DNA of 64,000 bases from Escherichia coli 042 (GTDB lineage: Bacteria > Pseudomonadota > Gammaproteobacteria > Enterobacterales > Enterobacteriaceae), in the NCBI RefSeq assembly GCF_000027125.1, contig NC_017626.1; one strand, written 5' to 3'. The translations under genes were made by a program, and so were the position numbers. How positions within the stretch are numbered: the first letter of the stretch is position 1; the number at the start of each line of letters is the position of its first letter. The notes under the pieces are model-generated. The model saw only the letters and a list, made by a program, of their open reading frames with translations, was not told the origin of the DNA and ran no database searches. Below are positions 532 to 47,992 of this stretch, in pieces.

Positions 532-572
532 GTCATGCCTACTGGTGAGATCCTGGTCGAAAAATAAACCAC

Positions 573-26158: not shown

Positions 26159-26643
26159 TTAATTACCTTCACTCGCGCTTTTTCTCCCACCACCAGCGCG
26201 TTGTCCGGGACAGAGTCGAGCACCACGCTGCCCGCGCCCACGGTGACGTTGTTACCAAGCGTGATATCACCAAGAATAATGACGTTGGCACCGAGCTCGA
26301 CGCCGTTGCCAATGTGTGGACATGCCATGTTATCGGCACCACGATTGCCGATAGTGACGCCGTGGCGAATGGTGAAATCATCCCCCGCTACCACGTTTTT
26401 ATTGATCACTACGGCGTAACCGTGATGGATAGTGAAACGGCGACCAATGGTTGCGGCTGCCTGGATTTCATAACCGAAAAAGCCTTCGGTGATAATGCGA
26501 TACAGCACCAACAGCGGGGCCGCCCAAAGATTGTTGAGGACGTTCTTTTTGCGCCACACCGAACAAAAATGAGCGGCGCGATAGGCAAGAACCATGCAGC
26601 ACGGGCGTAAACTCCAGCTGTTGGCGCGCAGATCTTCCAGCAT
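26155..26643 (-). CDS. wcaB: colanic acid acetyltransferase WcaB
   Basis: 162 aa hexapeptide-repeat acyltransferase. Confidence 0.88.
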   Translation of the reverse strand: MLEDLRANSWSLRPCCMVLAYRAAHFCSVWRKKNVLNNLWAAPLLVLYRIITEGFFGYEIQAAATIGRRFTIHHGYAVVINKNVVAGDDFTIRHGVTIGNRGADNMACPHIGNGVELGANVIILGDITLGNNVTVGAGSVVLDSVPDNALVVGEKARVKVIK

Positions 26644-26645
26644 CT

Positions 26646-27485
26646 TTAGCGCCCCCGAATACCATCAGCCAGACGTTTGCCGTTACGCACCGACAGCAGC
26701 GTCAACAACGTGCGCCAGGTCATACGTTTATTGCGGATCTGGTAGAGGGTAAACAGCTGATATTTTTTACTGGCACGGTCGAATTTATCTTTGTGCTTGC
26801 GGTAAAAGTGGAAGTATCCGGAGAATTTTTTTGGTGACGAGGTGATCTGCATTTCGCCGTGATTGATATGCAGGATCTGCGTCGCCTCTTCTACTTTCCA
26901 CGGTTCGCCATACTCCACCACCATCCGCAGGAAAATGTCGTAATCCTGTGCCGCTTTCAGTTCGGTATCGAACAAACACTCTTTGAAACGCCACGCCCAG
27001 GTAAAGACCTGATTGCCAATGATATTGCGTTTGTAGAACAGGCGGCGTGAATACGGCGATTTGGGATACAGTGGTAAGCTTGCCGGTTGGGAATAAACTT
27101 CTCCCTGGCATACGTAGTCGTTAGCGTACAAAAAGGCGTGAGTGACCAGTTGCTGTTTATGGGCGAGGAAGACGCTCAGGCGGTTGGGTGTCCATTCATC
27201 ATCATCATCGATTCCGGTGATATATTCCCCTTGCGCCAGCATAATCGCCTGGTTACGTACCGCGCACGCCCCGTTGTTAATGTCGTTGTGAATGTAGGTG
27301 ATACGCGGGTCGTTGAGGGCGGTGACGTACTGTTGCAGCTGTTCCCAGGAGGTGGAGCAATCATCCACGATGATCATCTCCCAGTTACTGTAGTCCTGGC
27401 GCAGGACCGATTTTATCGCCCGAATCGCCAGTTGTTGGCGGTTCCAGGTCGGCATATAGATTGAAATCAGCGGATTGTCTTTCAT
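26646..27485 (-). CDS. wcaA: colanic acid glycosyltransferase WcaA (GT2)
   Basis: 279 aa; GT2 N-terminus ISIYMPTWNRQQ...VDDCS. Confidence 0.88.
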   Translation of the reverse strand: MKDNPLISIYMPTWNRQQLAIRAIKSVLRQDYSNWEMIIVDDCSTSWEQLQQYVTALNDPRITYIHNDINNGACAVRNQAIMLAQGEYITGIDDDDEWTPNRLSVFLAHKQQLVTHAFLYANDYVCQGEVYSQPASLPLYPKSPYSRRLFYKRNIIGNQVFTWAWRFKECLFDTELKAAQDYDIFLRMVVEYGEPWKVEEATQILHINHGEMQITSSPKKFSGYFHFYRKHKDKFDRASKKYQLFTLYQIRNKRMTWRTLLTLLSVRNGKRLADGIRGR

Positions 27486-27549
27486 AGGTTGTTCTCCCGG
27501 AGTGTCGAGATGTTCTGCCGGTTTATAAGCTTGTTTACGGGTTCTGTTG

Positions 27550-27612
27550 CCGGATGCGGCGTGAACGGAGGTCGGATAAGATGCGTCAGCATCGCATCCG
27601 ACAGCGGATCTC
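27550..27612. repeat. REP-like palindromic unit between wcaA and wzc
   Basis: CCGGATGCGGCG...GCATCGCATCCGAC inverted-repeat structure typical of REP. Confidence 0.5.
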
Positions 27613-27613
27613 G

Positions 27614-29776
27614 TTATTTCGCATCCGACTTATATTCGTATTCGTAATAGCCATAATCCTGATACGCGCTGGCGCGGCGGAAGATGGAGTTCAGAATCAC
27701 CCCTTTCACCGGAATACCGTTTTGCTCAAAGCGGCTCAGACTGGTTTCCACTTCTTTCAATGTGTTGACCGCATAACGCGCCACCATTAACGTGGTTCCA
27801 ACATGACGACCAACAATTGCCGCATCGGTCACTGCCAGAATCGGCGGCGTATCAATCAACACCAGGTCGTAGTTTTTACTCGCCCAGTTCACCAGTTCGG
27901 CAAAGCGTTCGCTCATCAACAGTTCAGAAGGATTTGGCGGCACCTGACCGCGCGGGATCAGGTCAAATTTGGCAATAGAGGTCGGTTTAGCAGCGGTAGT
28001 AATATCGCCCTGACCAATCAGAATTTCCGACAGACCATTAACGTTATTAGTGCCCAACAGCTCGTGGGTGTAGCCTTTGCGCATATCGCAGTCGATCAAC
28101 AACACCCGTTTATTGGTCTGGCTGATCACCGCCGCCAGGTTGGCGCAGACAAAGGTTTTACCGATTGACGGGCTAACCCCGGTCATCATCAACACATTGT
28201 TCTGTGCCTGCATCATCGCGAAGTGCAGACTGGTACGCAGACTACGGATGGCTTCAATCGCCAGATCGGTTGGATTCCCCACCGCCAGTAGCTGGCTCTG
28301 TTTATAGCGTTTAACCCCTTTGATGGTTTTGACGCTATCGCGCGCTTTCTGCCACTCCGACAGCGGGATGCTGGCATAGACGCTGATGCCATGTTCTTCC
28401 AGCACCTGCGGGCTTTCAATGCCGCGATTGAACAAAGAGCGCAGCAGCACACCCACGATAGAGAGCATCAGGCCGAAGATAATCGCCCCGAGGATAATCA
28501 GCCCTTTCTTCGGTTTCAGCACACCAGGCTGGGTGATTGCCGGGTCAACAATGCGCACATCGCCGACGGTGCTGGCTTCGGTGATTTTCAGCTCCTGTTC
28601 TTTATTCAGCAGTTGCATATAGACCTGCTGCCCAGACTCGACATCGCGGGTCAGACGGACAATTTCCTGCTGGGTTTTCGGCATCGCCGTTACGCGACCG
28701 TTAAGTTTGGCTTTTTCGTCTTCCAGCGCCTGCCGTTTCTCCAGCAGCGTGCGATACGCCGGGTGAACTTTGGTGTACAGCTTGGAGATTTCCGCTTCTT
28801 TAAAGGTCAGTTCGTTCAACTGCGCGTCGATGTTCACCATCGAATCGAGCACCGCTTTCGCTTCCAGCGGCAGATCAACAGAATCTTTATCCTGACGGAA
28901 GGCATTCAGTTTGTTTTCGGCAACATCGAGGCGGCTACGTACTTCCGGTAACTGTTGCGCGAGGAAAGCGAGGCTTTTCGACGCTTCCGCCGATTTGCGC
29001 TCAATATTTTGTTCCTGATAGTTACGAGCGATGCTGTTAAGAATGTCGCGGATCTGTTCACGATCTTCACCGGTATAAGTCAGGCTCAGGACGCCTGCGT
29101 CTTTGCCGTTCTCCGTTACCGTCAGGCTGTTTTGCAGTTGATTGATCATCCCCAGCGTGGAGTATTTGGTGACGGTAAACTCACTGCCCGGGCGGGCGTG
29201 AATAGCTTCAACCATCAGCGTGACGCCTTCTTTTTTCAGCATCTGGCCCGCTTGCCCACGGGCGCTAAAGCCGCCATCGCTGCTCAGAGTGTAGTTTTTA
29301 TCGTCCAGCACATTAAGCGTAAACACCTGATCCGCCATCTCTTTCGGGCGGTTAAAGGTGGTCACTTTTACCGTCTCGTTCTGGCGTCCCATCAGGCGAT
29401 CCCAGCCCGCACCGAAAATCGGGAACGTGTTTTTGCTCACTGCAATATCGAGGTCGAGATCGTCCACCGTTTTACCAAGCACCAGACGCGAACGAATCAA
29501 CTGGATCTCGGCGTCCGATGCAGGCGGTTTGTTGGCTAATGCAGAGCCAATATCCTGCACCAGCGAATTGCCGCTGCTTTGTTCGATTTGTACCAGTGCG
29601 TCGGCGCTGTATATCGGCGTGGCGAAGAAGGTGTAAACCACGGCACAGAGGGCGAATACGGCGGTGATGCCAATTACCCACCAGCGCGCTTCAATGACGG
29701 TGCCGACCAGGCGACCAATATCGATTTCATCACTGCCCGTTACCGGAGCGGCATGTTGTTTTACTTTTTCTGTCAT
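27614..29776 (-). CDS. wzc: tyrosine autokinase / polysaccharide co-polymerase Wzc
   Basis: Start trimmed to MTEKVKQHAAPVTG (ATG at 29776), 720 aa; Walker A-like GVSPSIGKT and a C-terminal tyrosine-rich tail YQDYGYYEYEYKSD. Confidence 0.9.
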   Translation of the reverse strand: MTEKVKQHAAPVTGSDEIDIGRLVGTVIEARWWVIGITAVFALCAVVYTFFATPIYSADALVQIEQSSGNSLVQDIGSALANKPPASDAEIQLIRSRLVLGKTVDDLDLDIAVSKNTFPIFGAGWDRLMGRQNETVKVTTFNRPKEMADQVFTLNVLDDKNYTLSSDGGFSARGQAGQMLKKEGVTLMVEAIHARPGSEFTVTKYSTLGMINQLQNSLTVTENGKDAGVLSLTYTGEDREQIRDILNSIARNYQEQNIERKSAEASKSLAFLAQQLPEVRSRLDVAENKLNAFRQDKDSVDLPLEAKAVLDSMVNIDAQLNELTFKEAEISKLYTKVHPAYRTLLEKRQALEDEKAKLNGRVTAMPKTQQEIVRLTRDVESGQQVYMQLLNKEQELKITEASTVGDVRIVDPAITQPGVLKPKKGLIILGAIIFGLMLSIVGVLLRSLFNRGIESPQVLEEHGISVYASIPLSEWQKARDSVKTIKGVKRYKQSQLLAVGNPTDLAIEAIRSLRTSLHFAMMQAQNNVLMMTGVSPSIGKTFVCANLAAVISQTNKRVLLIDCDMRKGYTHELLGTNNVNGLSEILIGQGDITTAAKPTSIAKFDLIPRGQVPPNPSELLMSERFAELVNWASKNYDLVLIDTPPILAVTDAAIVGRHVGTTLMVARYAVNTLKEVETSLSRFEQNGIPVKGVILNSIFRRASAYQDYGYYEYEYKSDAK

Positions 29777-29778
29777 TC

Positions 29779-30222
29779 TTATACCTGCTCTGCGTTCAAT
29801 GCCTGCGCCCACTGGCGGGCAGACCGTTCAAGTAATGTGTACACCGCTGCAAACGTTTCCCGGCTTTTGCGATATGGATCGGGGATTTCACATTCGTTAT
29901 CCCAGTGACCAAACAGCATCACTTTGCCGCGCATCTCAGGTGCCATCTCGCATAAGCGTTCGATATGGCGCTTTTCCATGGTCAAAATCAGGTCGTAGTT
30001 GCGACACAGGCTGCGGCTGATTTGACGGGCACAGTGACCTTCCAGAGACAGTTGATGTTCTGCGGCGACGCTGATAGCGGTAGGATCAGCGCCCTTACCG
30101 ACCAGCGCGCCGAGTCCAGCGGACTCCACTTTCAGCTCCGGGTGATAACGTTGCAGTAAGCGTTCCGCCGTCGGGGAACGGCAAATATTGCCGACACAGA
30201 CAACTAATATGTTGTTAAACAT
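29779..30222 (-). CDS. wzb: low-molecular-weight protein-tyrosine phosphatase Wzb
   Basis: 147 aa; N-terminal CVGNICRSP P-loop. Confidence 0.92.
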   Translation of the reverse strand: MFNNILVVCVGNICRSPTAERLLQRYHPELKVESAGLGALVGKGADPTAISVAAEHQLSLEGHCARQISRSLCRNYDLILTMEKRHIERLCEMAPEMRGKVMLFGHWDNECEIPDPYRKSRETFAAVYTLLERSARQWAQALNAEQV

Positions 30223-30227
30223 GACGA

Positions 30228-31367
30228 TTACCAGTTATGAATGTCGCTGGCTGTATCCGTCATGTAACGGACACCGCTAATAGTTGGCAGCAACTGATTG
30301 ATCAGACGGTTCCAGCGGGAAACCGGTGCGGTGGTGACATACACCACGTCATAAGGTTGCAGGCGGAATTCTGTCGCCATCACCAGCGACGTCGCATCGG
30401 ACATATCCAGCTGATAGATATTGGCAATCTTGCCGTTACGCCCGCCCTCGCCTTTCAGCGGACGAATGACAAAGATGCCGCTGGCGTTGGAGGTGGTCAT
30501 GTCGATGCCTTCAGCATTGCCCAGGGCTTCAGTCAGGGTCATACCGCTAAAGTCCATTTTCAGGGTGCTCTGTTTCTTCACTTCACCCATCACAAACACT
30601 TTCAGATCATCATTACGCGGCACGTAGAGAATATCGCCAGGATAAAGCAGTCGGTTCTGATTGAGGTCGCCGTTTTGCATCAGCGCCTGCAAAGAAATGC
30701 GTTCTTCACGACCATTGTGTGTTAGCACCACGTTGCGCCAGTCAGCGGTGTCGGTCAGGCCACCTGCGGCGTTGATGGCGTCGAGAATGGTCAGTGGTAC
30801 GTTGGTGATCGCCTGTTGACCGGATTTATTCACCTGACCGGAGATATACGCTTTTTGCGAGCGGAAGGCGGCGATATTAACGTCCACCTGCGGGTCAGCG
30901 ATGTACGTCGCTAAGCGCCCGGTAATATCACTGCGGATTTCAGCGAGCGTTTTCCCCACCACGTGAACTTTGCCGATATACGGGTAGAACATGGTGCCGT
31001 CAGGCTGTACCCAGTTGCCGGTGTCGCTGGAGCTGCGGTACTGACCGGCTGGCGTGGTGAGCTCCGGGTGATCCCAGACGGTGACATTAAGAACGTCCCC
31101 CGGCCCGACGCGATACTGGTAATTCGCGATCTCACTTTCCAGCGTCATATTGGGGCGCGCTACGTTGGGTCGTGGACGTAATTGGTCAATCAGGCGCGGG
31201 GTCAACGGATAAACATTCACCATTTTGTCGAGATCGAAATCAGCGTCCTGCTGTTTGATGACGTCTTTGCCCATCGTCGACATATTGCTGCCCGGAAGTA
31301 CTGTGCAACCGCTTATCAAGGTTACTGACACCAATAATGGCATCAATTTCATTTTGGATTTCATCAT
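30228..31367 (-). CDS. wza: outer-membrane polysaccharide export lipoprotein Wza
   Basis: 379 aa; lipoprotein signal ending ...LISGCT. Confidence 0.9.
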
Positions 31368-31545
31368 TGTTTATTTATCACTTTGGCAGAGTAATTATCC
31401 TGTGCACTATTAATAGCAATGTCGCCATGCACATTTACCTTGCAGTTAATTGAATAAAAATTTAACTGGCATCAGTCCTAAAAAAATTGATTTCATCCGC
31501 AGGCTATTGACAGAATAATTCAGACTGGTCTTTCAGGCATCCAGA

Positions 31546-31584
31546 CACGCTACCGCCCCTGGCTTTTTAGCTACCAATACACTG
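31546..31584 (-). promoter_or_regulatory. JUMPstart element with ops (GGCGGTAGCGTG) in the wza leader
   Basis: Minus-strand sequence CAGTGTATTGGTAGCTAAAAAGCCAGGGGCGGTAGCGTG; shares the ...AGCCAGGGGCGGTAGCGTG core with the element at 7230-7268. Confidence 0.85.
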
Positions 31585-31769
31585 ATTTAGCTTAATTTTT
31601 AAAACCCTCTCAACATACAGTCGTTGATGAGAAAGGGTTATTGCGGAAATTAACTTCCGAATATAAGGTGACATTATGGTAATTGAATATTGGCTCTCCA
31701 ATAATGCAGGAGGAAGTGTTACAGCTAACGGAATAGCAGGCAAGGTAACAATTCGGCAATTGGCTATTT

Positions 31770-31785
31770 TTAAGAATTATATTAA
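31770..31785 (-). promoter_or_regulatory. candidate RcsAB-box-like site upstream of wza
   Basis: TAAGAATTATATTAAG partly resembles the RcsAB box consensus TaAGaatatTCctA; the match is weak and the position is not verified. Confidence 0.25.
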
Positions 31786-32025
31786 GTGTCATTCAATATG
31801 GTTTTTAGGAGTTTCTTTAGGTTGACAATATTTAATATAGTGTCTCCACATGCGATATTTCTTAAATAATGTTTTATTATTACCACTTTTAATTCAGGGA
31901 TAATGTGAGGTTATAAACCTCAAATAATATGAGATAAATAGTGCTGCAACATTGCATTTTTGCCCCGATTTATCCATGATCGAATTGTGACATTTGTCAT
32001 ACAACGAATAGGTTTTGTACTTACT

Positions 32026-33609
32026 ATGGAATGGATTGCCGATCCGTCTATCTGGGCCGGGTTAATCACGCTGATTGTGATCGAACTGGTCCTCGGCATT
32101 GATAACCTGGTCTTTATTGCCATCCTCGCCGAAAAACTACCGCCGAAGCAGCGCGACCGCGCACGGGTTACCGGGCTGCTGCTGGCGATGTTAATGCGCC
32201 TGTTACTGCTGGCGTCAATCTCCTGGCTGGTCACCCTGACTCAACCGCTGTTCAGCTTCCGCTCGTTTACCTTTAGCGCCCGCGACTTAATCATGCTGTT
32301 TGGTGGTTTCTTCCTGTTGTTCAAAGCCACGATGGAGCTTAACGAACGGCTGGAAGGGAAAGACAGCAATAACCCCACGCAACGCAAAGGTGCGAAGTTC
32401 TGGGGGGTGGTGACACAAATTGTGGTACTGGACGCCATCTTCTCACTCGACTCAGTGATTACCGCCGTCGGGATGGTCGACCATTTACTGGTCATGATGG
32501 CCGCCGTGGTTATCGCTATCAGCCTGATGTTGATGGCCAGCAAGCCGTTAACCCAGTTCGTTAACAGTCACCCGACCATCGTTATTCTCTGCTTAAGCTT
32601 CCTGTTGATGATTGGCTTTAGCCTGGTGGCGGAAGGTTTCGGCTTCGTCATTCCGAAAGGCTACCTGTACGCTGCCATTGGTTTCTCGGTGATGATCGAG
32701 GCGCTCAATCAGTTGGCTATCTTTAACCGGCGACGTTTTCTTTCCGCTAACCAGACGCTGCGCCAGCGGACTACCGAAGCGGTAATGCGCCTGCTTAGCG
32801 GGCAAAAAGAAGATGCGGAACTGGACGCCGAAACCGCGTCCATGCTGGTGGATCATGGTAACCAGCAGATCTTTAATCCGCAGGAACGGCGGATGATTGA
32901 GCGGGTACTTAATCTTAACCAGCGTACTGTCAGCAGCATTATGACGTCGCGCCACGATATTGAGCATATCGATCTCAACGCGCCGGAAGAAGAAATCCGC
33001 CAGTTGCTGGAGCGAAATCAGCATACGCGGCTGGTGGTTACTGATGGCGATGACGCAGAAGATTTGCTCGGTGTTGTTCACGTTATCGACCTGCTACAAC
33101 AGTCTCTGCGCGGCGAACCGCTCAACCTGCGGGTGTTGATTCGCCAGCCGCTGGTGTTCCCGGAAACCTTGCCGTTGTTACCTGCCCTGGAGCAGTTCCG
33201 TAATGCTCGCACACACTTTGCTTTTGTGGTGGATGAGTTTGGTTCAGTGGAAGGGATTGTGACATTAAGTGACGTCACTGAAACCATTGCCGGTAACTTA
33301 CCGAACGAAGTGGAAGAGATCGACGCCCGCCATGATATTCAGAAGAATGCGGACGGTTCCTGGACGGCGAATGGTCATATGCCACTGGAAGATCTGGTGC
33401 AATATGTGCCGCTACCGCTGGATGAGAAACGCGAATATCACACCATTGCCGGGCTGCTGATGGAATATTTGCAGCGTATTCCAAAACCTGGCGAAGAAGT
33501 TCAGGTGGGGGATTATTTGCTTAAAACGTTGCAGGTGGAAAGCCATCGCGTGCAGAAGGTGCAGATTATACCGCTGCGTAAGGATGGCGAGATGGAGTAC
33601 GAGGTGTGA
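32026..33609 (+). CDS. yegH: inner-membrane TerC-family protein with CBS/CorC domains (UPF0053)
   Basis: Start trimmed to [13 protein letters not shown] (ATG at 32026), 527 aa; N-terminal membrane domain followed by a soluble C-terminal region. Confidence 0.85.
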
Positions 33610-33946
33610 TGGTATCGGCCATTTTACCCAATGCTGCGTAACGCCTTATAACTTCAGCAATGAAGCGATGTCTGTGGTACATGGACATCACAGCGGGGGT
33701 GTGGGTCCGGCTGTAAATCGCCGAATCGTTTCCTGTAGGCCGGGGCAGCCCACATGGATGTGGGCTGAGGGCGCGTTTTACAGGGATGTTACCTCGCGCC
33801 CGTACCCGATAGCCGAAAGGAATAAGATGAGGGAACCGCGCCAGCGGCGATTTACCGCCGGGAGCCCGGGTTGCCAGGGTGGTGGCGATTGAGCCACCCT
33901 GGCACGTTCACCGGCTTGAGCGTTCCATAGTAGCGAGGAACATCAA

Positions 33947-34168
33947 GTGAACGGAACAGCCTTCGATCTTACATATTCAGAATATAATGGTGCCGCCGCT
34001 CGCGATGCTGATGGGATCTATCGCGTCATGTATGTCGCAAAATTTGAAGAAGCGGTTTACGTATTGCATTGTTTTCAAAAGAAAACACAGACTACCAGTC
34101 AATCGGATATTGATTTAGCCAAACGACGCTATAAAGAACTTGTTCAGGAGCGGAAAAATGAAAATTGA
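33947..34168 (+). CDS. RelE/HigB-2 (Gp49-like) family toxin, apparently N-terminally truncated (possible remnant)
   Basis: C-terminal core ...GIYRVMYVAKFEEAVYVLHCFQKKTQTTSQSDIDLAKRRYKEL carries the LHxFxKKTQ signature. The frame is closed by an in-frame TGA at 33917-33919 and the first start is GTG at 33947, leaving only 73 aa. Confidence 0.5.
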   Translation: MNGTAFDLTYSEYNGAAARDADGIYRVMYVAKFEEAVYVLHCFQKKTQTTSQSDIDLAKRRYKELVQERKNEN

Positions 34169-34448
34169 AACCTTTGATAGTGTGTGGGATGCGGTGAGTG
34201 ACACCCCTGAACAAGCGGAAAATATGCGGATCCGTGCCGAACTTGTTACGATCATTAATAACTGGATTGAACAACAAGGGTTTAGCCAGGCTCAGGCAGC
34301 GTCTGCTTTAGGGGTCACTCAACCTCGCATATCTGAACTTGCCAGAGGTAAGATCCAGATCTTTAGTATCGATAAATTGATCACCATGATGGCTCATGCA
34401 GGATTGCATATTCAACGTATTGAAGTTCAATATCCACATGCTGCTTAG
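34158..34448 (+). CDS. HigA-2-like XRE-family helix-turn-helix antitoxin
   Basis: MKIETFDSVWDAVSDTPEQAENMRIRAEL...GFSQAQAASALGVTQPRISELARGKIQIFSIDKL fits the small HTH antitoxin pattern; AGGAG Shine-Dalgarno at 34146-34150; ATG at 34158 overlaps the toxin ORF 3' end. Confidence 0.7.
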   Translation: MKIETFDSVWDAVSDTPEQAENMRIRAELVTIINNWIEQQGFSQAQAASALGVTQPRISELARGKIQIFSIDKLITMMAHAGLHIQRIEVQYPHAA

Positions 34449-34459
34449 TACTATAAATA

Positions 34460-34489
34460 CAGATGGCGACAAATTGACGCCGCCATCTG
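34460..34489. terminator. hairpin between the convergent antitoxin gene and asmA (possible bidirectional terminator)
   Basis: CAGATGGCG...CGCCATCTG inverted repeat; no strong U-tract, so the call is tentative. Confidence 0.35.
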
Positions 34490-34500
34490 CATAACTTGTC

Positions 34501-36354
34501 TTACATCTTCTCCAGCAACTTCTTCACATCTTTGCCATTGCGGGAATCTTTATTCCGCTCGGCCCAGTCATTCAGGCGACGTTTCGCTTCGTCCTGTAAG
34601 TGTTTACGCAGTAACTGATCCACTTGCAGACTGTAATTGAGTTGCTGCCAGTTGCCATAAACCCGCAGCGGTACTGGCGTTTCTTTGAGGAAATCAATCA
34701 GTTTGCTTTCCCCGTTCCAGCCACCCACGACCCGAATATCAAACTGGGTGTCGCAGGTTTGATCTGCCAGATTCAACATACCTTCCCCTGTAAGCGCCAG
34801 CACAGGCGATTGACCTTGCATGTCGTTTAACGTCACGACGCCATCCTTCAACATCAAATCGGTGGTAAAGCGGTCAAGACGCGTCACGTTATCAAAGTTT
34901 TCAGCGGCCTTCACATCACCACCATTACGCTCTACCGCTTGCTGAATCATCTGCTGGAAGTTCATCCCTTCCATGCGCGTGTCGGTCATTTCGACATGTG
35001 CCTGTCCTTGCCAGTTGTGGCGGAATGCGTCGGCATCTATGTCAGCACCGGAGAAATCACCAGCCAGTGACATCTTTCCAGTCAACGAAATCGGATAGTT
35101 AAACGCCTTCAGAATGGTGCCAATCTCAACGTTTTCCAGCCGGGGCTGGAAGTTTATCCGCGGATTTATTGATGTCGCGTCCAGCGCGCCCGGCAGTGAA
35201 ACCTGTCCACCGTTAAGTTTGCCCTGCAGTTGAGTAATTTCCAGCAGACCCGACTTGTTGGTCATTTGCGTGGCAACATCTGTAAAATTCATTCCGCGCC
35301 AGCGCACGTTACTGGCCTGCAACAAAATATCAGCCGTAAAGCCTTGCAGTCCCTGATAGGCCGGTTCATCAATACGCGAAGAAATGACCGGGCGCGGCAA
35401 CGTTGATTGGCTCTGCCCCTGCTGCGCGGCACCGTTTTCACCGTTCGCTGTTTCATTAAGCGGGATGAGGTTGTCAAGATTCAGTTGCGGAAATTGCAGT
35501 CTCAGCTGCCATTCCGGTTGCTCTGTCAGCGTGACCTGTGCTTGCCCGCTCAGCGTACTGTCATTGGCGGTCAAACTAATTTGGTTAAATGAAAGGCGTT
35601 TATGTGACTCCTGCCACTGGGCCTGGAAACTCCCCTGCCCCTGAATACCTTGTTTTGGTAAATCTGCACCCTGCAACTGCCAGTTAACTTGTTCAATAGC
35701 CGCCGTTAAATCATGCGGATAATCAGAAGCATCTACCGTACCGTTAAGGGATATCGTGAGATCGCGCTGATCGCGATTAACCCGCCCGGAGAACTCAAAT
35801 GAACCACGATGTTGGGGATCTTGTTCCATTTGCAGGCGAATATTGCGGATTGTCACCTGCTCGTCATCTTCATGCTGGAACACCAGCACGCTGTCCGCCA
35901 CCTTAAGACTGGATATATCAAACGACCATCCGCGATCGTCTGACAGATCCGGCAAGGTATTGTCGCGCGGTGCAACCGGAGCGTCTTCACTGCGCACCGC
36001 TTCCGTCTGCGGCGTCAGTTGAATCACTGCCCCTTTTAGCATCACCTGCTTAACGCTCAGTTGATGACTCAGCAGTGGTAAAAGCGCCACGTCCAGACGC
36101 ATGTTGTCTGCGCGAACCAGTGGCTGGCTCGCGCCCTGGGCAGTGAGAGACATTCGCCCGGAGAGGATACTAAGCTGCGGCCAGACGTGCCAACGCAGTG
36201 GCCCGTCGAGCTGCAATTGATAACCGCTACGTGCAGCAACTTGCTTGACCATATAGTCGCGGAAATCATTCGGATTCACCAGCAACACTAACGCAGATAA
36301 CCCGGTCACCAGCACGACCAGGAGTATCATCAGCGTCGTCAGAAATCGTCTCAT
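34501..36354 (-). CDS. asmA: outer-membrane assembly protein AsmA
   Basis: 617 aa; N-terminal signal anchor; matches AsmA length and position. Confidence 0.9.
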   Translation of the reverse strand: MRRFLTTLMILLVVLVTGLSALVLLVNPNDFRDYMVKQVAARSGYQLQLDGPLRWHVWPQLSILSGRMSLTAQGASQPLVRADNMRLDVALLPLLSHQLSVKQVMLKGAVIQLTPQTEAVRSEDAPVAPRDNTLPDLSDDRGWSFDISSLKVADSVLVFQHEDDEQVTIRNIRLQMEQDPQHRGSFEFSGRVNRDQRDLTISLNGTVDASDYPHDLTAAIEQVNWQLQGADLPKQGIQGQGSFQAQWQESHKRLSFNQISLTANDSTLSGQAQVTLTEQPEWQLRLQFPQLNLDNLIPLNETANGENGAAQQGQSQSTLPRPVISSRIDEPAYQGLQGFTADILLQASNVRWRGMNFTDVATQMTNKSGLLEITQLQGKLNGGQVSLPGALDATSINPRINFQPRLENVEIGTILKAFNYPISLTGKMSLAGDFSGADIDADAFRHNWQGQAHVEMTDTRMEGMNFQQMIQQAVERNGGDVKAAENFDNVTRLDRFTTDLMLKDGVVTLNDMQGQSPVLALTGEGMLNLADQTCDTQFDIRVVGGWNGESKLIDFLKETPVPLRVYGNWQQLNYSLQVDQLLRKHLQDEAKRRLNDWAERNKDSRNGKDVKKLLEKM

Positions 36355-36375
36355 GGTATCCTCAATGGGCCTGAA

Positions 36376-36957
36376 TTAGTCTTTATCGATTCGGCTGGCT
36401 ACCGCGCCCTGCTGGTTGCGATATTTCGCATCTTCACGGCGGTTGTAAGGTCGCGCCGCCGGGCCGGAAAGCGGCTCAAAGCTCAGCGCACCAATTAACA
36501 TGCCCGGACGCAGCGCCAGCGGCAGCTTACCGGAGTTGTAGAACTCCAGCACAATACAGCCAGACCAGCCCGGATCGATACGGTGCGCGGTGACGTGCAC
36601 CATCAGCCCCAGACGCGCCAGTGAGGAACGACCGTCCAGCCAGCCCACCAGATCGGCTGGCAGCGTCACCGACTCCAGCGTCACCGCCAGCGCCAGCTCT
36701 CCTGGGTGAAGATAAAACGCCTCGCTTTCATCGAGTACGATCTCATCGCTCATCACGCGGTCAAGCGCGGCGCTCACTTCATCTTTGGGACCGCTCAGAT
36801 CGATAAACGCTGCCGTGTGACCACGGAAGGTACGAAATTTATTGCCCAGGCGCACATCCACCGTCGCGCCATTAATACGCTCCACTGGCGGACGTGGGTT
36901 GATCGACAAACGGCCTTCATCAAGCCAGGCTTCAATATCTCGGTCACACAGACGCAT
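36376..36957 (-). CDS. dcd: dCTP deaminase
   Basis: 193 aa; [18 protein letters not shown]-terminus of Dcd. Confidence 0.92.
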
Positions 36958-37048
36958 GGCATTTTCTCCTTTCGTGCATCACTCCCTTAACGCCAATTAC
37001 GTCAAGGGCATACCAGGTTATCACTGAACGGTACACAATTTATCAAGC

Positions 37049-37690
37049 TTATTCAAAGAACTGACTTATTTTCGCTTTCAATATATCGATGGCGATGCGG
37101 TTTTTCCCGCCGCGTGGCACGATAATGTCCGCATATTGTTTAGAAGGCTCAATGAATTGCAGGAACATCGGGCGCACGGTTTTTTGATATTGCGCCATCA
37201 CGGAATCCATTGAACGCCCACGCTCGTTAACGTCACGCTTGATGCGGCGCATCAGACAGATATCCAGCGGGGTATCAACGAAAATTGAGAAGTTAAGTTC
37301 ATCACGCAAACGCGCATCCGTCAGCAGCAAAATGCCTTCGAGAATGATGACTTTCTTCGGCTCAACCGTCACCGTTTCTTTCATACGCGTATGTTCAACA
37401 TAGCTGTAAACCGGCAGGTCAATTGCCGAGCCGCGTTTCAATGCTTGTAAATGCTCAAGCAGCAGGCTGTGATCCATCGCGCTGGGATGGTCGTAGTTGG
37501 TCTTAACGCGTTCTTCCATCGACAGATGGCTTTGATCTTTGTAATAGCAGTCTTCGGGAATTACGCCGATGTGTTCATCACCGACTTGCTCACGTAATTC
37601 ACGATAAAGGGTACTGGCAATAAGACTCTTGCCGGAAGCCGATGCGCCAGCGATACCGATAATGACGCACTGATGAGACTGATCAGTCAT
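37049..37690 (-). CDS. udk: uridine/cytidine kinase
   Basis: Start trimmed to [22 protein letters not shown] (ATG at 37690), 213 aa; Walker A P-loop. Confidence 0.9.
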
Positions 37691-38007
37691 ATATTTAGCG
37701 ACCTGATTAACCTGGATGTTAGGAAGGGGGCGACGAAGCGCCAAACGCGGCAATTATAGGGATTTCATCCGCCTGATACCAGTCGAATAGCGTTGCCGCG
37801 CGCTCAGAGTTAATTGTTGACGAAGAATTCCCGGTGGCAAATTACGTTGATCAGTTTTATACAAGGTAAAAAATGTTATACGCCGTTGCGCAAATTATCC
37901 GCCTTTACGTCACTTTATGTGCAATTCGCATATAAAATGTAAAACTTTTGTACTAGCATAAACACAGAAACGAATACTGGCGACCTGGTCTTGCGGATAA
38001 AGCGGTA

Positions 38008-41000
38008 ATGAGCAAACAATCACAGCATGTATTAATTGCCCTGCCCCACCCGCTGCTTCACCTGGTCAGTTTAGGTTTAGTCTCGTTTATCTTTACCCTT
38101 TTCTCGCTTGAGCTTTCGCAGTTTGGCACCCAACTTGCCCCATTGTGGTTCCCGACGTCCATCATGATGGTGGCGTTTTATCGCCATGCCGGGCGCATGT
38201 GGCCGGGGATTGCGCTGAGCTGCTCGCTGGGAAATATCGCCGCATCCATCCTGCTTTTTTCCACCAGCTCGCTGAACATGACCTGGACGACCATCAATAT
38301 TGTTGAAGCCGTGGTCGGGGCAGTGCTACTGCGTAAATTACTGCCGTGGTATAACCCCTTGCAAAATCTGGCTGACTGGCTGCGTCTGGCACTCGGCAGC
38401 GCCATTGTTCCGCCTCTGTTGGGGGGGGGTTCTGGTTGTCCTGCTGACGCCCGGAGACGATCCTCTCAGGGCATTTTTGATATGGGTACTGTCAGAATCC
38501 ATCGGCGCACTGGCACTGGTGCCACTGGGATTGTTATTTAAACCACACTATCTGCTGCGCCATCGCAACCCACGGTTGCTTTTTGAGTCGCTGCTCACGT
38601 TAGCCATCACACTGACGTTAAGCTGGCTTTCGATGCTGTATCTGCCGTGGCCTTTTACTTTCATTATTGTGCTGTTGATGTGGAGCGCCGTGCGCCTGCC
38701 ACGAATGGAAGCCTTTTTGATCTTCCTTACCACGGTGATGATGGTGTCACTGATGATGGCCGCTGATCCCTCCCTGCTTGCTACGCCGCGTACATACCTG
38801 ATGAGCCATATGCCGTGGCTACCGTTTTTGCTGATCCTGCTGCCCGCCAACATCATGACCATGGTGATGTATGCCTTTCGTGCGGAACGCAAACACATTT
38901 CCGAAAGCGAAACCCGCTTTCGGAACGCGATGGAATATTCCGCCATCGGCATGGCATTAGTGGGCACCGAGGGGCAATGGCTGCAATCCAACAAAGCGCT
39001 CTGCCAGTTTCTCGGTTACAGTCAGGAAGAACTGCGCGGACTCACCTTTCAGCAACTGACCTGGCCGGAGGATCTCAATAAAGATCTGCAACAGGTTGAA
39101 AAGCTGATCAGCGGTGAAATAAACACCTATTCAATGGAAAAACGCTACTACAACCGCAATGGCGATGTTGTCTGGGCGTTGCTTGCCGTCTCACTGGTGC
39201 GCCACACCGATGGTACGCCGCTCTATTTTATCGCTCAGATTGAAGACATTAACGAGCTAAAACGCACCGAACAGGTGAACCAGCAACTGATGGAGCGCAT
39301 CACGCTGGCTAACGAAGCGGGCGGGATTGGCATCTGGGAGTGGGAGCTAAAGCCGAATATTTTTAGCTGGGATAAGCGGATGTTCGAGCTGTATGAAATT
39401 CCTCCGCATATCAAACCGAACTGGCAGGTGTGGTACGAGTGCGTGCTGCCGGAAGATCGCCAGCACGCCGAAAAAGTGATTCGCGATTCATTGCAATCAC
39501 GCTCTCCCTTTAAACTGGAATTTCGCATTACCGTGAAAGACGGCATCCGCCATATCCGCGCCCTCGCCAACCGGGTACTGAATAAAGAAGGCGAAGTCGA
39601 ACGTCTGCTCGGCATTAATATGGATATGACCGAGGTTAAACAGCTTAACGAGGCATTGTTTCAGGAAAAAGAGCGCCTGCACATTACGCTGGACTCCATC
39701 GGTGAAGCCGTGGTCTGTATTGATATGGCGATGAAAATTACCTTTATGAATCCGGTGGCGGAGAAGATGAGCGGCTGGACGCAGGAAGAAGCATTAGGTG
39801 TTCCGCTCCTGACGGTGTTGCATATTACTTTTGGCGACAACGGACCATTAATGGAGAACATTTACAGTGCCGACACCTCACGTTCCGCGATTGAACAAGA
39901 TGTGGTGTTGCACTGTCGGAGCGGCGGCAGCTACGACGTGCATTACAGTATTACGCCGTTAAGTACTCTGGACGGCAGCAATATAGGCTCGGTTCTGGTG
40001 ATTCAGGACGTCACCGAATCGCGTAAAATGCTGCGCCAGCTGAGCTACAGCGCCTCCCATGATGCACTGACGCATCTCGCCAATCGCGCCAGTTTTGAGA
40101 AGCAACTACGCATCCTGCTGCAAACGGTAAACAGTACACATCAGCGACATGCCCTGGTGTTTATCGATCTTGATCGCTTTAAAGCGGTGAATGACAGCGC
40201 CGGGCACGCCGCTGGCGACGCTTTACTGCGCGAACTGGCGTCATTGATGCTGAGTATGCTGCGCTCCAGCGACGTGCTAGCGCGACTCGGTGGCGATGAA
40301 TTTGGTCTGCTGCTGCCAGATTGTAATGTCGAAAGTGCGCGTTTTATCGCTACACGTATTATCAGCGCCGTGAATGACTATCACTTTATCTGGGAAGGAC
40401 GTGTACATCGGGTAGGTGCCAGTGCCGGGATTACCTTGATTGATGACAACAATCATCAGGCGGCTGAAGTGATGTCGCAGGCTGATATCGCCTGTTATGC
40501 CTCCAAAAATGGTGGACGGGGCCGGGTGACGGTTTACGAACCGCAGCAAGCTGCCGCACATAGCGAACGGGCGGTGATGTCGCTTGATGAACAGTGGCGG
40601 ATGATTAAAGAGAATCAGTTGATGATGATCGCCCGCGGTGTCGCTTCGCCGCGGATCCCGGAAGCGCGTAATTTGTGGCTGATTTCACTTAAGCTCTGGA
40701 GTTGCGAAGGCGAGATTATTGATGAACAAACATTTCGTCGTAGCTTCAGCGATCCGGCACTTAGCCATGCTCTTGACCGACGGGTATTCCACGATTTTTT
40801 CCAGCAGGCCGCAAAAGCGGTTGCCAGTAAAGGCTTAAGCATCGCCCTCCCCCTTTCCGTTGCCGGTTTGAGTAGCGCCACGCTGGTGAATGAACTAATT
40901 GAGCAGCTGGAAAATAGCCCTCTACCACCACGGTTATTACATCTGATTATTCCGGCAGACGCGATTTTAGATCACGCAGAAAGCGTGCAAAAACTGCGGC

Positions 41001-41326
41001 TGGCAGGATGTCGGATCGTATTCAGTCAGGTGGGCCGCGATCTGCAAATCTTCAACTCGCTGAAAGCGAATATGGCAGATTACCTGCTACTTGATGGTGA
41101 GTTATGCGCCAACGTGCAGGGAAATTTGATGGATGAGATGCTGATTACGATCATTCAGGGGCACGCTCAGCGGCTCGGGATGAAGATCATCGCCGGGCCA
41201 GTCGTTTTACCCTTAGTGATGGATACGCTTTCTGGCATCGGCGTCGATCTGATTTATGGCGATGTGATTGCCGATGCCCAACCGCTGGATTTGCTGGTGA
41301 ATAGCAGTTATTTCGCGATTAACTGA
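38008..41326 (+). pseudogene. dgcE: diguanylate cyclase DgcE (MASE1-PAS-GGDEF-EAL), interrupted by a +1 frameshift in a G9 homopolymer at 38431-38439
   Basis: N-terminal ORF 38008-38541 reads ...SAIVPPLLGGGSGCPADARRR* while frame 38300-41326 continues ...VLVVLLTPGDDPLRAF... through the GGDEF (RLGGDEFG) and EAL regions. Deleting one G restores a 1105-codon reading frame. Confidence 0.8.
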
Positions 41327-41343
41327 GGGAGCGTTTGCCCATT

Positions 41344-41368
41344 GCCTGATGCGACGTATCAGGCCTAC
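41344..41368. repeat. single REP unit at the alkA 3' end
   Basis: GCCTGATGCGACGTATCAGGCCTAC palindromic unit. Confidence 0.6.
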
Positions 41369-42222
41369 AATTCGTCCGTTCCGTCTGGTTGCCAGCCTTC
41401 TGTATACCAGATATGCAACAGCGCATAAGAACGCCAGGGCTTCCAGCGTTCGGCATAACGGCGGATTTGTGCCGGTGTCATTCCCGGAAATCGCTGTTTA
41501 ATCAGATAATCATCCGGCAGGAAAACATCTTTCGCCTGCCAGCCACGTAAGGCGAAATAATTCGCCGTCCAGCGCCCGATACCCGGAAAAGTTTGCAGCG
41601 TTTTCATCGCTTGTTCTACGTCGCCCGGAATTGTCATTGGTAAGGTGCCCTCCAGCGCCGCATTTGCCAGATGAATCAGTGCCTCTGCCCGTTTCAACGG
41701 CATACCTAACGCTTTTAATGCCTGCGGGTCGGCTGCAGCCAGCCGCTGAGGCGTGGGGAAGCAGACATAATCCGGAAAATCATCCAGCCGTTCGCCATAA
41801 AGCTGTGCCACTCTGGCGGTCAATTTTGCCGCCATCGCCACGCTCACCAGTTGGCCTAAAATCGCCCGCACGCCCTGCTCAAAAGCATCAACACTGCCGG
41901 GTAAACGCAATCCGGGCCGCGCCGCGCCTAACTTGCCCAACGCACCGTTAACAATCTGCGGGTGACATTGCAGATCAAACAGGCGGCTCATTTTCGCCAG
42001 ACACTCTGCGGCAACAGGTTCTAAACCTGCACTTAAATTTATGTGCAGAGTATGGCGGGCTATATCCGGAATAGCAGTCACCACGCCGCGATATTCGCCC
42101 ACCGCCAGACTACGGGCATAATAATCGTCAGCGACCGTTTCCACACCGTTCACCGCACGGGCGGCGAGAAATCCCAACATCCACGACCAGTCATACGGCG
42201 GCTGCCAGTTCAGGGTATACAT
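41365..42222 (-). CDS. alkA: 3-methyladenine DNA glycosylase II
   Basis: 285 aa; MYTLNWQPPYDWSWMLGFLAARAV N-terminus of AlkA. Confidence 0.9.
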   Translation of the reverse strand: MYTLNWQPPYDWSWMLGFLAARAVNGVETVADDYYARSLAVGEYRGVVTAIPDIARHTLHINLSAGLEPVAAECLAKMSRLFDLQCHPQIVNGALGKLGAARPGLRLPGSVDAFEQGVRAILGQLVSVAMAAKLTARVAQLYGERLDDFPDYVCFPTPQRLAAADPQALKALGMPLKRAEALIHLANAALEGTLPMTIPGDVEQAMKTLQTFPGIGRWTANYFALRGWQAKDVFLPDDYLIKQRFPGMTPAQIRRYAERWKPWRSYALLHIWYTEGWQPDGTDEL

Positions 42223-42274
42223 CGCATCTCCTTGTTAATCCGCTTTCAGCATAAACGTTATTCAGACGCTACGC

Positions 42275-42282
42275 TTTGCTTT
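42275..42282 (-). promoter_or_regulatory. Ada box (AAAGCAAA) in the alkA promoter
   Basis: Minus-strand AAAGCAAA about 50 bp upstream of the alkA start, matching the alkA-type Ada site. Confidence 0.6.
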
Positions 42283-42355
42283 CATATTCCGGTTGTCGCG
42301 ACGGCAACATTTCGCTAAAGTCACGCCCCTTCTTCACCGGCATGGGGATTATTTC

Positions 42356-43708: not shown

Positions 43709-43720
43709 TTGAAAACTGGC

Positions 43721-47811: not shown

Positions 47812-47992
47812 AAGAAATCCTTTCTTAGAGAATTATTGAGGTCCGGTATCATACCGATTGCAATAATGAAATAAGAGCAAACGAAGAAACTTTCAGAATT
47901 AGGCCCGGCGGCGCAGAAAATTTTGCTATTCGCCTCGCAAGAACGAAGAGCCGTCGATTGACACTAAGGGCGGAGTGACATAATTTCAGGAG

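What the first reader, a model, noticed from the sequence alone, without database searches (positions are those of the whole stretch)
33610..34500. HigB-2/HigA-2-like type II toxin-antitoxin cassette between yegH and asmA, with an apparently decapitated toxin
Two overlapping small ORFs lie in an ~890-bp gap between yegH and asmA. The downstream one (34158-34448) is a convincing XRE-type HTH antitoxin with a strong AGGAG Shine-Dalgarno. The upstream one (33947-34168) carries the C-terminal RelE/Gp49-type core (YRVMYVAKFEEAVYVLHCFQKKTQ) but can only start at a GTG 27 codons upstream of that core, because an in-frame TGA sits at 33917-33919; no frame encodes the usual N-terminal 30-40 residues. 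This looks like a toxin-inactivated TA remnant with a retained antitoxin, or an unusually short toxin. From memory, K-12 has no gene between yegH and asmA, so this may be a strain-variable insertion.
Basis: partly seen in the sequence, partly recalled or inferred. Interest (0 to 1): 0.65.

Follow-up and report, generated by a model that had tools for sequence, protein, structure and literature searches.

The report
Decayed toxin-antitoxin cassette between yegH and asmA
This is an ordinary, already-annotated relic of a small toxin-antitoxin gene pair: one old deletion removed the promoter and the front half of the toxin gene, while the antitoxin gene was left intact.

Summary

The 891-bp yegH-asmA spacer is a hybrid.
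- Window 33610-33997 is ordinary non-coding spacer found in TA-less E. coli.
- Window 33999-34500 is the 3' part of a Gp49/HigB-type toxin plus HTH_37 antitoxin cassette.

At this same site the cassette is intact in 793 of 5426 complete E. coli genomes. Another 115 carry exactly this truncation, which NCBI's PGAP annotation pipeline already annotates as a toxin pseudogene 'missing N-terminus' next to an intact HTH protein. K-12 and most strains have no cassette.

The deletion removed the 74-bp promoter/palindrome leader and toxin codons 1-56.
- The 73-aa ORF is a chimera of 17 spacer codons and toxin residues 57-112.
- It keeps Pfam Gp49 positions 46-90 of 90, only strands β3-β4 and helix α3 of the predicted RelE-like fold, and 9 of 19 invariant family positions.
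- Full-length relatives are 112-116 aa, so this is not a naturally short toxin.

The antitoxin protein is identical to the one in intact cassettes. Whether it is expressed or selected is unresolved. Toxin damage beside an intact antitoxin recurs at this locus and in other species.

Verdict: known kind, low interest. Side observation: the left half holds a dispersed hairpin element that resembles a CsrA-binding RNA.

The parts
33610..33997 (+). Native, TA-less yegH-asmA spacer sequence ('long' allele). It replaces the cassette's promoter leader and toxin codons 1-56.
   Evidence: 99.7% identical to the TA-less spacers of other strains (H6/L003). The 195-bp block 33803-33997 is single-copy and present in 4336 of 5426 genomes, including K-12, BL21 and ST131.
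33715..33899 (+). Dispersed repeat of about 185 bp with two GGA-loop hairpins (TwoAYGGAY-like, possibly CsrA-binding). It is part of the spacer, not of the TA cassette.
   Evidence: 86% identical to a copy in the K-12 lysO-aqpZ spacer. Rfam TwoAYGGAY scores 31.5 bits, below the gathering score of 43. RNA fold -65.3 kcal/mol, z = -4.39. It occurs inverted between REPs in L024.
33947..33997 (+). First 17 codons of the chimeric 73-aa ORF (GTG start, GAGGA 7 nt upstream). They derive from an accidental 20-codon ORF of the native spacer.
   Evidence: The same GTG ORF (VNGTAFDLTYSEYNDAATNA*) is present and unannotated in the K-12 spacer.
33961..33988 (+). The only (weak) sigma-70-like candidate upstream of the orphan antitoxin: CTTCGA-16 nt-TATAAT, 8 of 12 matches. 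The perfect -10 hexamer lies 10 bp left of the junction.
   Evidence: Own loose scan. The standard scan found no promoter or terminator in 33560-34540.
33996..34000 (.). Deletion/recombination junction: ...AATGGTGCCGCC|G|CTCGCGATGCTG. To the left is spacer sequence that ends exactly where the REP begins in TA-less alleles. To the right is toxin codon 57 onward.
   Evidence: Alignment of four alleles. megablast splits the query at 388/390. All 115 truncated genomes break at the same position, 244 of the intact-allele query.
33999..34168 (+). Toxin remnant: residues 57/58-112 of a 112-aa Gp49/HigB-type RelE-fold toxin (strands β3 and β4, helix α3). A pseudogene.
   Evidence: 55 of 56 residues identical to WP_001227701 residues 57-112. 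Pfam Gp49 model positions 46-90 only, against 1-90 for the intact protein. AF2 model of the intact protein has pLDDT 93.4 and topology β1-α1-α2-β2-β3-β4-α3. PGAP note: 'missing N-terminus'.
34158..34448 (+). Intact HTH_37 (XRE-type) antitoxin gene of 96 aa, with AGGAG 6 nt upstream. It overlaps the toxin remnant by 11 bp.
   Evidence: Pfam HTH_37 E 5e-22. The protein is identical to the antitoxin of the intact cassette L002. PDB 2a6c matches at E 3.4e-14.
34449..34500 (+). 52-bp cassette-type spacer running to the asmA stop codon. It is shared with intact-TA alleles and differs from TA-less alleles, which carry a REP here.
   Evidence: Alignment.

Best explanation
The region is a hybrid allele of a hypervariable intergenic site. 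Its right 502 bp come from a chromosomal type II toxin-antitoxin operon. That operon encodes a Gp49/HigB-type RelE-fold toxin first, then an overlapping HTH_37 antitoxin. It is intact at the same site in about 15% of E. coli.

**Shown**
- One ancient deletion or illegitimate-recombination event joined the end of the ordinary TA-less spacer, at the point where its REP would begin, to toxin codon 57.
- The event removed the 74-bp leader (a 13-bp-arm palindrome plus TATAAT) and toxin residues 1-56.

**Inferred**
- In intact alleles the toxin probably acts as a ribosome-associated mRNA endonuclease. The antitoxin would neutralise it and repress the operon through the leader palindrome. This rests on fold and family only.
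- In the window the toxin is dead. It lacks β1, α1, α2, β2 and 10 of 19 invariant family residues.
- The 73-aa ORF is an accidental in-frame fusion with a 20-codon spacer ORF.
- Loss of the toxin is tolerated, whereas loss of the antitoxin first would be lethal. That asymmetry would explain why the antitoxin survives.

**Unresolved**
- The antitoxin gene remains intact but has lost its own promoter. Any expression would depend on read-through from yegH or on a weak spacer promoter.
- Whether the antitoxin still does anything is unknown.
For: **Hybrid structure**
- The query splits at 388/390. The left part matches TA-less strains at 99.7% and the right part matches intact-TA strains at 99.4%.

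**Allele counts in 5426 complete genomes**
- 793 intact and 115 truncated, all with the same breakpoint.
- The apparent 'short-left' variants are the same allele carrying an IS110-family insertion.

**Toxin**
- Only residues 57-112 are retained.
- Pfam covers half the domain in the window and the full domain in the intact allele.
- The AF2 model has pLDDT 93.4. Foldseek's top hits are M. tuberculosis HigB1 (TM 0.67), S. pneumoniae HigB, V. cholerae HigB2, ParE2 and RelE.
- 10 of 19 invariant family columns lie in residues 1-56.
- Full-length homologues are 112-116 aa.

**Antitoxin and promoter**
- The antitoxin protein is identical to the one in intact cassettes.
- The promoter/palindrome leader is present in the intact allele and absent from the window.

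**Independent inactivations that spare the antitoxin**
- ECONIH6 has a frameshifted toxin.
- In other species the toxin is damaged or absent in 6 of 9 loci that have an intact antitoxin.

**Existing annotation and literature**
- PGAP annotates the same pseudogene.
- Orphan antitoxins are reported as abundant in E. coli, especially phylogroup B2 (PMC10790755).
Against: - No experimental data on toxicity, neutralisation or transcription were available.
- The remnant ORF is still open in all seven truncated alleles examined. It also has a Shine-Dalgarno-like GAGGA before its GTG, so translation of a 73-aa product cannot be excluded.
- The formation route is unresolved. No genome carries the hypothetical intermediate (spacer unit plus full cassette): 0 of 5426. 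The event could therefore be illegitimate recombination between two allele types rather than an in-situ deletion.
- The palindrome in the intact allele's leader could be the yegH terminator rather than an operator.
Confidence: 0.88

Rival explanations
1. The antitoxin-only module is kept by selection. The orphan antitoxin would be expressed by yegH read-through or from the spacer's TATAAT. It would act as an anti-addiction or immunity factor against related Gp49/HigB-type toxins arriving on plasmids or phages, or as a transcription factor for other genes.
For: - The antitoxin protein is identical to, or one conservative residue (V90I) away from, the one in intact cassettes, in all 7 truncated alleles from diverse lineages including SMS-3-5, ABU 83972 and O157:H16.
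- Antitoxin polymorphisms are 11 synonymous to 4 nonsynonymous overall. Within truncated alleles they are 4 synonymous plus V90I. All 4 variable sites in the toxin remnant are nonsynonymous.
- The toxin family is common on plasmids: 637 records, 303 conjugative, 115 from Escherichia.
- The literature discusses anti-addiction roles for orphan antitoxins (PMC10790755).
Against: - The cassette's own promoter is deleted, and only a weak 8-of-12 promoter candidate remains.
- Polymorphisms are shared between truncated and intact alleles. The synonymous bias may therefore have arisen in intact cassettes and been imported by recombination.
- The counts are too small for a test.
- Apart from three E. 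coli plasmid records with a ≥99% identical toxin, the nearest plasmid-borne toxins are only about 72-74% identical. Cross-neutralisation at that distance is doubtful.
- In WB61 the antitoxin is also mostly deleted, so it is dispensable.
Confidence: 0.2
2. The 73-aa ORF is a functional, unusually short toxin, or a functional antitoxin-binding decoy. It would be translated from the GTG at 33947.
For: - The ORF is open, with GAGGA 7 nt upstream of the GTG.
- It retains the most conserved C-terminal motif, YVLHCFQKKTQ, and the C-terminal helix.
- The ORF is intact in all seven truncated alleles examined.
Against: - It lacks β1, α1, α2 and β2 of a four-stranded RelE-type fold, and 10 of 19 invariant positions.
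- Its first 17 residues are spacer-derived and unrelated to the family.
- No short family exists: intact relatives are 112-116 aa, and the shorter ones carry stops or truncations.
- All 4 polymorphisms in the remnant change the amino acid.
- No promoter was detected.
Confidence: 0.03
3. The truncated form is the original arrival. A 3' fragment of the cassette would have been inserted at the REP of a TA-less spacer, and intact alleles would be a separate acquisition. On this view there was no deletion of an intact resident cassette.
For: - The junction lies exactly where the REP begins in TA-less alleles.
- This spacer is a rearrangement hotspot. Alleles include a REP-only form, an inverted unit between REPs, and IS110 insertions.
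- No intermediate allele exists in 5426 genomes.
Against: - The right boundary of the truncated allele is base-for-base the same as in intact alleles, down to the asmA stop codon (TAA, against TAG in TA-less alleles). The simplest explanation is derivation from a resident intact allele.
- Truncated and intact alleles share polymorphisms.
- Either way the outcome, a dead toxin with an intact antitoxin, is the same.
Confidence: 0.12

Closest known systems
Gp49 (PF05973) / HigB-type toxins of the RelE/ParE superfamily with HTH_37 (PF13744) antitoxins: M. tuberculosis HigB1 (7AWK/7NBU), S. pneumoniae HigBA (6AF3/6AF4), V. cholerae HigB2-HigA2 (5JA8, 8A0X)
   Same: - Toxin-first gene order with overlapping genes.
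- The intact allele gives a full Gp49 domain.
- The predicted fold matches HigB1 (TM 0.67), S. pneumoniae HigB and HigB2 (TM about 0.59).
- The antitoxin is an XRE-type HTH.
   Different: - Sequence identity to solved members is only 12-21%.
- V. cholerae HigB2/HigA2 is not detected by sequence search.
- The window copy lacks the N-terminal half of the toxin and the promoter.
- Activity is untested.
The intact yegH-asmA cassette of E. coli O157:H7, O55:H7, IAI39 and others (toxin WP_001227701, antitoxin WP_000687871/872)
   Same: - Same chromosomal site.
- 99.4% DNA identity over window 33999-34500.
- Identical antitoxin protein.
   Different: The window lacks the 74-bp leader and toxin codons 1-56. 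These are replaced by 388 bp of TA-less spacer.
Orphan antitoxins and degraded chromosomal TA loci, as surveyed in E. coli (PMC10790755) and K. pneumoniae (PMC7192599)
   Same: - An intact antitoxin sits next to a missing or pseudogenised toxin.
- The allele is present in phylogroup B2 strains such as ABU 83972.
- Independent toxin-inactivating lesions recur.
   Different: Nothing material. This is one more instance, here with an exactly mapped breakpoint and allele frequencies.
TwoAYGGAY RNA (Rfam RF01731), proposed to be a CsrA-binding sRNA (PMC4333381). This concerns the left-hand spacer element only.
   Same: Two hairpins with AYGGAY-type loops (ACAUGGAUGU and ACAGGGAUGU) enclosed by an outer stem.
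   Different: - It scores 31.5 bits against a gathering score of 43.
- It is a dispersed repeat of E. coli intergenic regions, not a described member.
- It is unrelated to the TA cassette.

Membership tests
Gp49/HigB-type RelE-fold toxin (Pfam PF05973) | Match to the whole Gp49 domain | tested here: not met
   The window ORF matches model positions 46-90 of 90 only. The intact allele at the same site matches positions 1-90, E 1.5e-30. The window gene is therefore a fragment of a member, not a member.
Gp49/HigB-type RelE-fold toxin (Pfam PF05973) | Complete RelE-like fold (N-terminal strand, two helices, antiparallel sheet, C-terminal helix) | tested here: not met
   The AF2 model of the intact protein gives β1(4-7) α1(11-16) α2(20-34) β2(52-58) β3(64-71) β4(75-84) α3(91-111), pLDDT 93.4. 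It matches HigB1, HigB, HigB2, ParE and RelE structures. The window retains only residues 57/58-112, that is β3, β4 and α3.
Gp49/HigB-type RelE-fold toxin (Pfam PF05973) | Conserved family residues present | tested here: not met
   10 of 19 invariant columns (F7, P19, G27, Q34, G36, P39, K43, P44, G51, I55) lie in the deleted part.
Gp49/HigB-type RelE-fold toxin (Pfam PF05973) | Growth inhibition or ribosome-dependent mRNA cleavage | not testable with these tools
   Needs expression and cleavage assays.
Type II TA operon, higBA-type organisation | Toxin gene upstream of and overlapping the antitoxin gene, preceded by an autoregulated promoter | tested here: inconclusive
   Gene order and the 11-bp overlap are retained. 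The leader of the intact allele, with its 13-bp-arm palindrome and TATAAT, is deleted from the window. The operator function of that palindrome is inferred, not shown.
HTH_37 / XRE-type antitoxin (Pfam PF13744) | Full-length HTH_37 domain and intact ORF | tested here: met
   HTH_37 model positions 2-76 of 80, E 5e-22. The protein is identical to the antitoxin of intact cassettes. PDB 2a6c matches at E 3.4e-14.
HTH_37 / XRE-type antitoxin (Pfam PF13744) | Neutralises the cognate toxin and binds the operator | not testable with these tools
   Needs co-expression and DNA-binding assays.
   No HigB2 or HigA2 chain appears in phmmer or profile searches of the PDB at E<=1. There is only a fold-level match, TM about 0.5-0.6 at 12-16% identity. 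M. tuberculosis HigB1 and S. pneumoniae HigB are closer.
NCBIfam TIGR02683 (upstrm_HI1419 RelE/ParE toxin) | Score above the curated cut-off | tested here: not met
   The intact toxin scores 27 bits against a cut-off of 62.85. The window ORF has no hit.
TwoAYGGAY RNA (RF01731), spacer element 33711-33854 | Score at or above the Rfam gathering threshold | tested here: not met
   31.5 bits (window) and 30.6 bits (K-12 paralogue) against a gathering score of 43.

The most novel reading that the evidence does not exclude
The locus is not a dead relic but an antitoxin-only immunity gene. After the deletion, the orphan HTH_37 antitoxin would be transcribed from the adjoining spacer unit or by yegH read-through. 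Selection would keep it because it neutralises related Gp49/HigB-type toxins arriving on plasmids or phages (anti-addiction or anti-defence). The in-frame 73-aa chimera might be co-translated as a decoy.

Separately, the 185-bp spacer element with two CsrA-consensus hairpins could be an undescribed CsrA-titrating RNA repeat of E. coli.
Probability: 0.15. Interest if true: 0.4.

Novelty: already known. Interest (0 to 1): 0.15.

Why it matters
It matters little. It is a clean, well-mapped example of the usual decay path of chromosomal type II TA modules: the toxin goes first and the antitoxin lingers. It sits at a hypervariable intergenic site with at least six allele types.

Three modest uses:
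- **Annotation.** The 73-aa ORF should not be called a toxin.
- **Strain typing.** The allele could serve as a marker.
- **Natural experiment.** About 115 sequenced strains carry the orphan antitoxin, against about 793 with the intact pair. That contrast could be used to test whether orphan antitoxins give cross-immunity.

Tried and rejected
- **Left half as a multi-copy mobile element that hit the toxin gene: rejected.** The 195-bp block next to the junction is single-copy native spacer, present in 4336 genomes including K-12. Only the element at 33715-33899 is dispersed.
- **Two different truncated junction types (long-left and short-left): rejected.** The 'short' hits are the same allele interrupted by an IS110-family element.
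- **Intermediate allele (spacer unit plus full cassette): not found.** A synthetic joined query gave 0 of 5426 genomes.
- **Naturally short toxin family: rejected**.
- **Group II intron or retron-like RNA in the GC-rich leader: no support.** There was no Rfam hit apart from the sub-threshold TwoAYGGAY match.
- **Literature search for this locus** (yegH, asmA, toxin-antitoxin): nothing specific.
- **Anti-phage defence models (PADLOC):** only weak, uninformative hits.
- **Selection test on the orphan antitoxin: inconclusive.** There are few sites, and polymorphisms are shared with intact alleles.
- **GTDB species scan with the antitoxin:** no copy in the other Escherichia or Salmonella representatives. 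That scan finds close relatives only and samples one genome per species.

Full report
**1. The observation**

yegH (31960-33609, + strand) and asmA (34501-36354, - strand) leave an 891-bp gap. It contains a GTG-initiated 73-codon ORF (33947-34168). A 96-codon ORF follows from the ATG at 34158 (ending at 34448), overlapping the first by 11 bp. AGGAG lies 6 nt upstream of that ATG.

An in-frame TGA sits at 33917-33919. Pfam places the first ORF in Gp49 (PF05973), but only over model positions 46-90 of 90 (E 2.8e-17). The second ORF falls in HTH_37 (PF13744, E 5e-22).

**2. What the region is made of**

megablast against 5426 complete E. coli genomes shows that the 891 bp is composite. Only 115 genomes hold it whole. 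Elsewhere, query positions 1-388 and 390-891 occur in different genomes, always between yegH and asmA.

Annotated examples and an alignment define four alleles.
- **A, intact cassette.** The yegH stop is followed by a 74-bp leader, a 112-aa RelE/ParE-family toxin (WP_001227701) and a 96-aa HTH protein.
- **B, TA-less 'long' spacer.** 388 bp plus a REP.
- **C, TA-less 'short' spacer.** This is the K-12 type.
- **D, hybrid.** This is the window's allele. It equals B up to ...AATGGTGCCGCC and then equals A from toxin codon 57 to asmA.

PGAP annotates D as a toxin pseudogene, 'incomplete; missing N-terminus', followed by an intact HTH protein.

Counts are 793 genomes with A and 115 with D. All D alleles break at the same position of the A query, 244-745. 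Hits that seemed to have a shorter left arm are the same allele carrying an IS110-family insertion at about 33786. A synthetic query joining the spacer end to the 5' part of the cassette found no genome with both (0 of 5426). So no intermediate allele is known.

**3. The toxin remnant**

The 73-aa ORF aligns to residues 57-112 of the intact toxin, with 55 of 56 identical. tblastn finds no other toxin-derived coding sequence in 33001-35000.

Its first 17 codons, and the GTG with GAGGA 7 nt upstream, belong to the native spacer. K-12 has the same ORF ending after 20 codons, and it is unannotated. The ORF is therefore an accidental in-frame fusion.

The intact protein matches the whole Gp49 domain. 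With a 7-sequence family alignment it gives a confident AF2 model (pLDDT 93.4). The topology is β1(4-7) α1(11-16) α2(20-34) β2(52-58) β3(64-71) β4(75-84) α3(91-111).

Foldseek's best PDB matches are M. tuberculosis HigB1 (7AWK, TM 0.67), S. pneumoniae HigB (6AF4), V. cholerae HigB2 (5JA8, TM about 0.59), ParE2 and RelE. Sequence and profile searches reach only S. pneumoniae HigB and M. tuberculosis HigB1.

The remnant keeps β3, β4 and α3 only. It loses 10 of the 19 invariant family columns. Intact relatives in Paraburkholderia, a Pseudomonas cerasi plasmid and Nocardia are 112-116 aa. There is no short-toxin family. I conclude the toxin is inactive. This is an inference from fold and conservation, not an assay.

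**4. The antitoxin**

The window's antitoxin protein is identical to that of intact cassettes such as L002 and O157:H7. The six other D alleles sampled carry WP_000687871, which differs by V90I and is also found in intact cassettes.

Over the shared 502 bp no site distinguishes D from A, and five polymorphisms are shared between the two classes. This suggests an old deletion allele that has since exchanged sequence with intact alleles.

In the antitoxin, variable sites are 11 synonymous and 4 nonsynonymous. Within D alleles they are 4 synonymous plus V90I. All 4 variable sites in the toxin remnant are nonsynonymous. This fits constraint on the antitoxin and none on the remnant. But the numbers are small and the changes may have arisen in intact cassettes, so it does not show that the orphan is under selection.

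The cassette's leader (ATCAAATGCGCAG-N7-CTGCGCATTTGAT followed by TATAAT) is deleted. The standard scan finds no promoter or terminator in 33560-34540. A looser scan finds only CTTCGA-16-TATAAT at 33961-33988 in the spacer. Expression of the orphan is therefore uncertain.

**5. Toxin-first decay recurs**

At the same locus, ECONIH6 has a frameshifted toxin with an intact antitoxin. WB61 has a larger deletion running from the 3' end of yegH through most of the antitoxin.

A scan of one genome per species found antitoxin relatives in 12 loci. These include Photorhabdus, [Erwinia] mediterraneensis, a P. cerasi plasmid, Paraburkholderia, Nocardia and several metagenome-assembled genomes. None were in the other Escherichia or Salmonella representatives.

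Of the 9 loci with an intact antitoxin and adequate flank, only 3 have an intact toxin. The others carry in-frame stops, 5' truncations or no toxin.

The toxin family is frequent on plasmids: 637 records, 303 of them conjugative. Three E. coli plasmid records carry a ≥99% identical toxin, and otherwise the nearest plasmid relatives are about 72-74% identical.

A published survey reports abundant orphan antitoxins in E. coli, particularly in phylogroup B2 (ST73 and others), and discusses anti-addiction roles (PMC10790755). ABU 83972 carries this allele.

**6. The left half and the site**

The yegH-asmA spacer is hypervariable. Besides A-D there are two further alleles.
- A minimal 67-bp allele consisting of one REP (L023).
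- An allele in which the roughly 300-bp unit lies inverted between two inverted REPs (L024).

About 299 genomes have neither the cassette nor the 195-bp block.

Within the unit, 33715-33899 is a dispersed repeat, 86% identical to a copy in the K-12 lysO-aqpZ spacer. Its core folds into an outer stem enclosing two hairpins with loops ACAUGGAUGU and ACAGGGAUGU (-65.3 kcal/mol, z = -4.39). It gives sub-threshold matches to Rfam TwoAYGGAY: 31.5 and 30.6 bits against a gathering score of 43.

TwoAYGGAY RNAs have been proposed to bind CsrA (PMC4333381). From my own knowledge, the two loops resemble the SELEX CsrA consensus RUACARGGAUGU. I did not test this here. The element is not part of the TA cassette.

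**7. Verdict**

Three refinements apply.
- The decapitation is a junction with unrelated spacer DNA at about 33998, not a point lesion.
- The GTG start is fortuitous.
- The 'HigB-2' label is only a fold- and Pfam-level resemblance.

The allele is already annotated in public genomes and is an instance of a well-described phenomenon. Interest is low. The only open points are whether the orphan antitoxin is expressed and useful, and what the CsrA-like spacer repeat does.

Noticed in passing
window 33715-33899 (core 33711-33854); K-12 paralogue L006:1498-1637 (lysO-aqpZ spacer): A dispersed repeat of about 185 bp whose RNA folds stably (z = -4.39). It forms two hairpins with loops ACAUGGAUGU and ACAGGGAUGU inside an outer stem. 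It gives sub-threshold Rfam TwoAYGGAY matches (about 31 bits against a gathering score of 43). There are 1-5 places per E. coli genome, median 2. The loops resemble the CsrA-binding consensus (own knowledge). TwoAYGGAY has been proposed as a CsrA-binding sRNA (PMC4333381).
   Followed up: partly
yegH-asmA spacer across genomes: L023 (67 bp, a single REP), L024 (unit inverted between two inverted REPs), L003/L004 (long and short forms), L010 (WB61 deletion): The spacer is a rearrangement hotspot with at least six allele types. The roughly 300-bp non-coding unit occurs in both orientations flanked by REPs, which suggests REP-mediated inversion or insertion.
   Followed up: partly
L027:1-400 and L028:1-400 (O157:H16 98-3133, EA13), insertion point equivalent to window ~33786: An IS110-family ('RNA-guided transposase') element is inserted inside the second GGA hairpin loop of the dispersed element in a subset of truncated-allele strains.
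   Followed up: partly
window 47958-48763: Three tandem repeats of about 328 bp each carry a SIB RNA (Rfam RF00113, 140-150 bits) opposite an Ibs-like short hydrophobic ORF (type I toxin-antitoxin). From memory, K-12 has two copies (sibA, sibB) at this position.
   Followed up: partly
window 33947-34009 equivalent; K-12 L009:1646-1708: The native spacer of K-12 and most strains contains a 20-codon GTG ORF (VNGTAFDLTYSEYNDAATNA) with GAGGA 7 nt upstream. It is unannotated in NC_000913.3 and is probably fortuitous. It supplies the start of the chimeric ORF in the window.
   Followed up: no
window 24000-44000: The best match to any of 5426 complete E. coli genomes is only 97.6-98.2% identical over 20 kb. 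The window therefore comes from a lineage, or a locally recombinant segment near the colanic-acid genes, that is not closely represented among complete genomes.
   Followed up: no
L002:2764-2796 (intact allele leader): A perfect 13-bp-arm palindrome, ATCAAATGCGCAG-N7-CTGCGCATTTGAT, sits immediately after the yegH stop codon and just upstream of a TATAAT. It could be the antitoxin's operator, the yegH terminator, or both.
   Followed up: no
L003:938-976: A JUMPstart RNA element (RF01707, 57 bits) lies upstream of the wza side of the locus, as expected for the colanic-acid operon leader.
   Followed up: no
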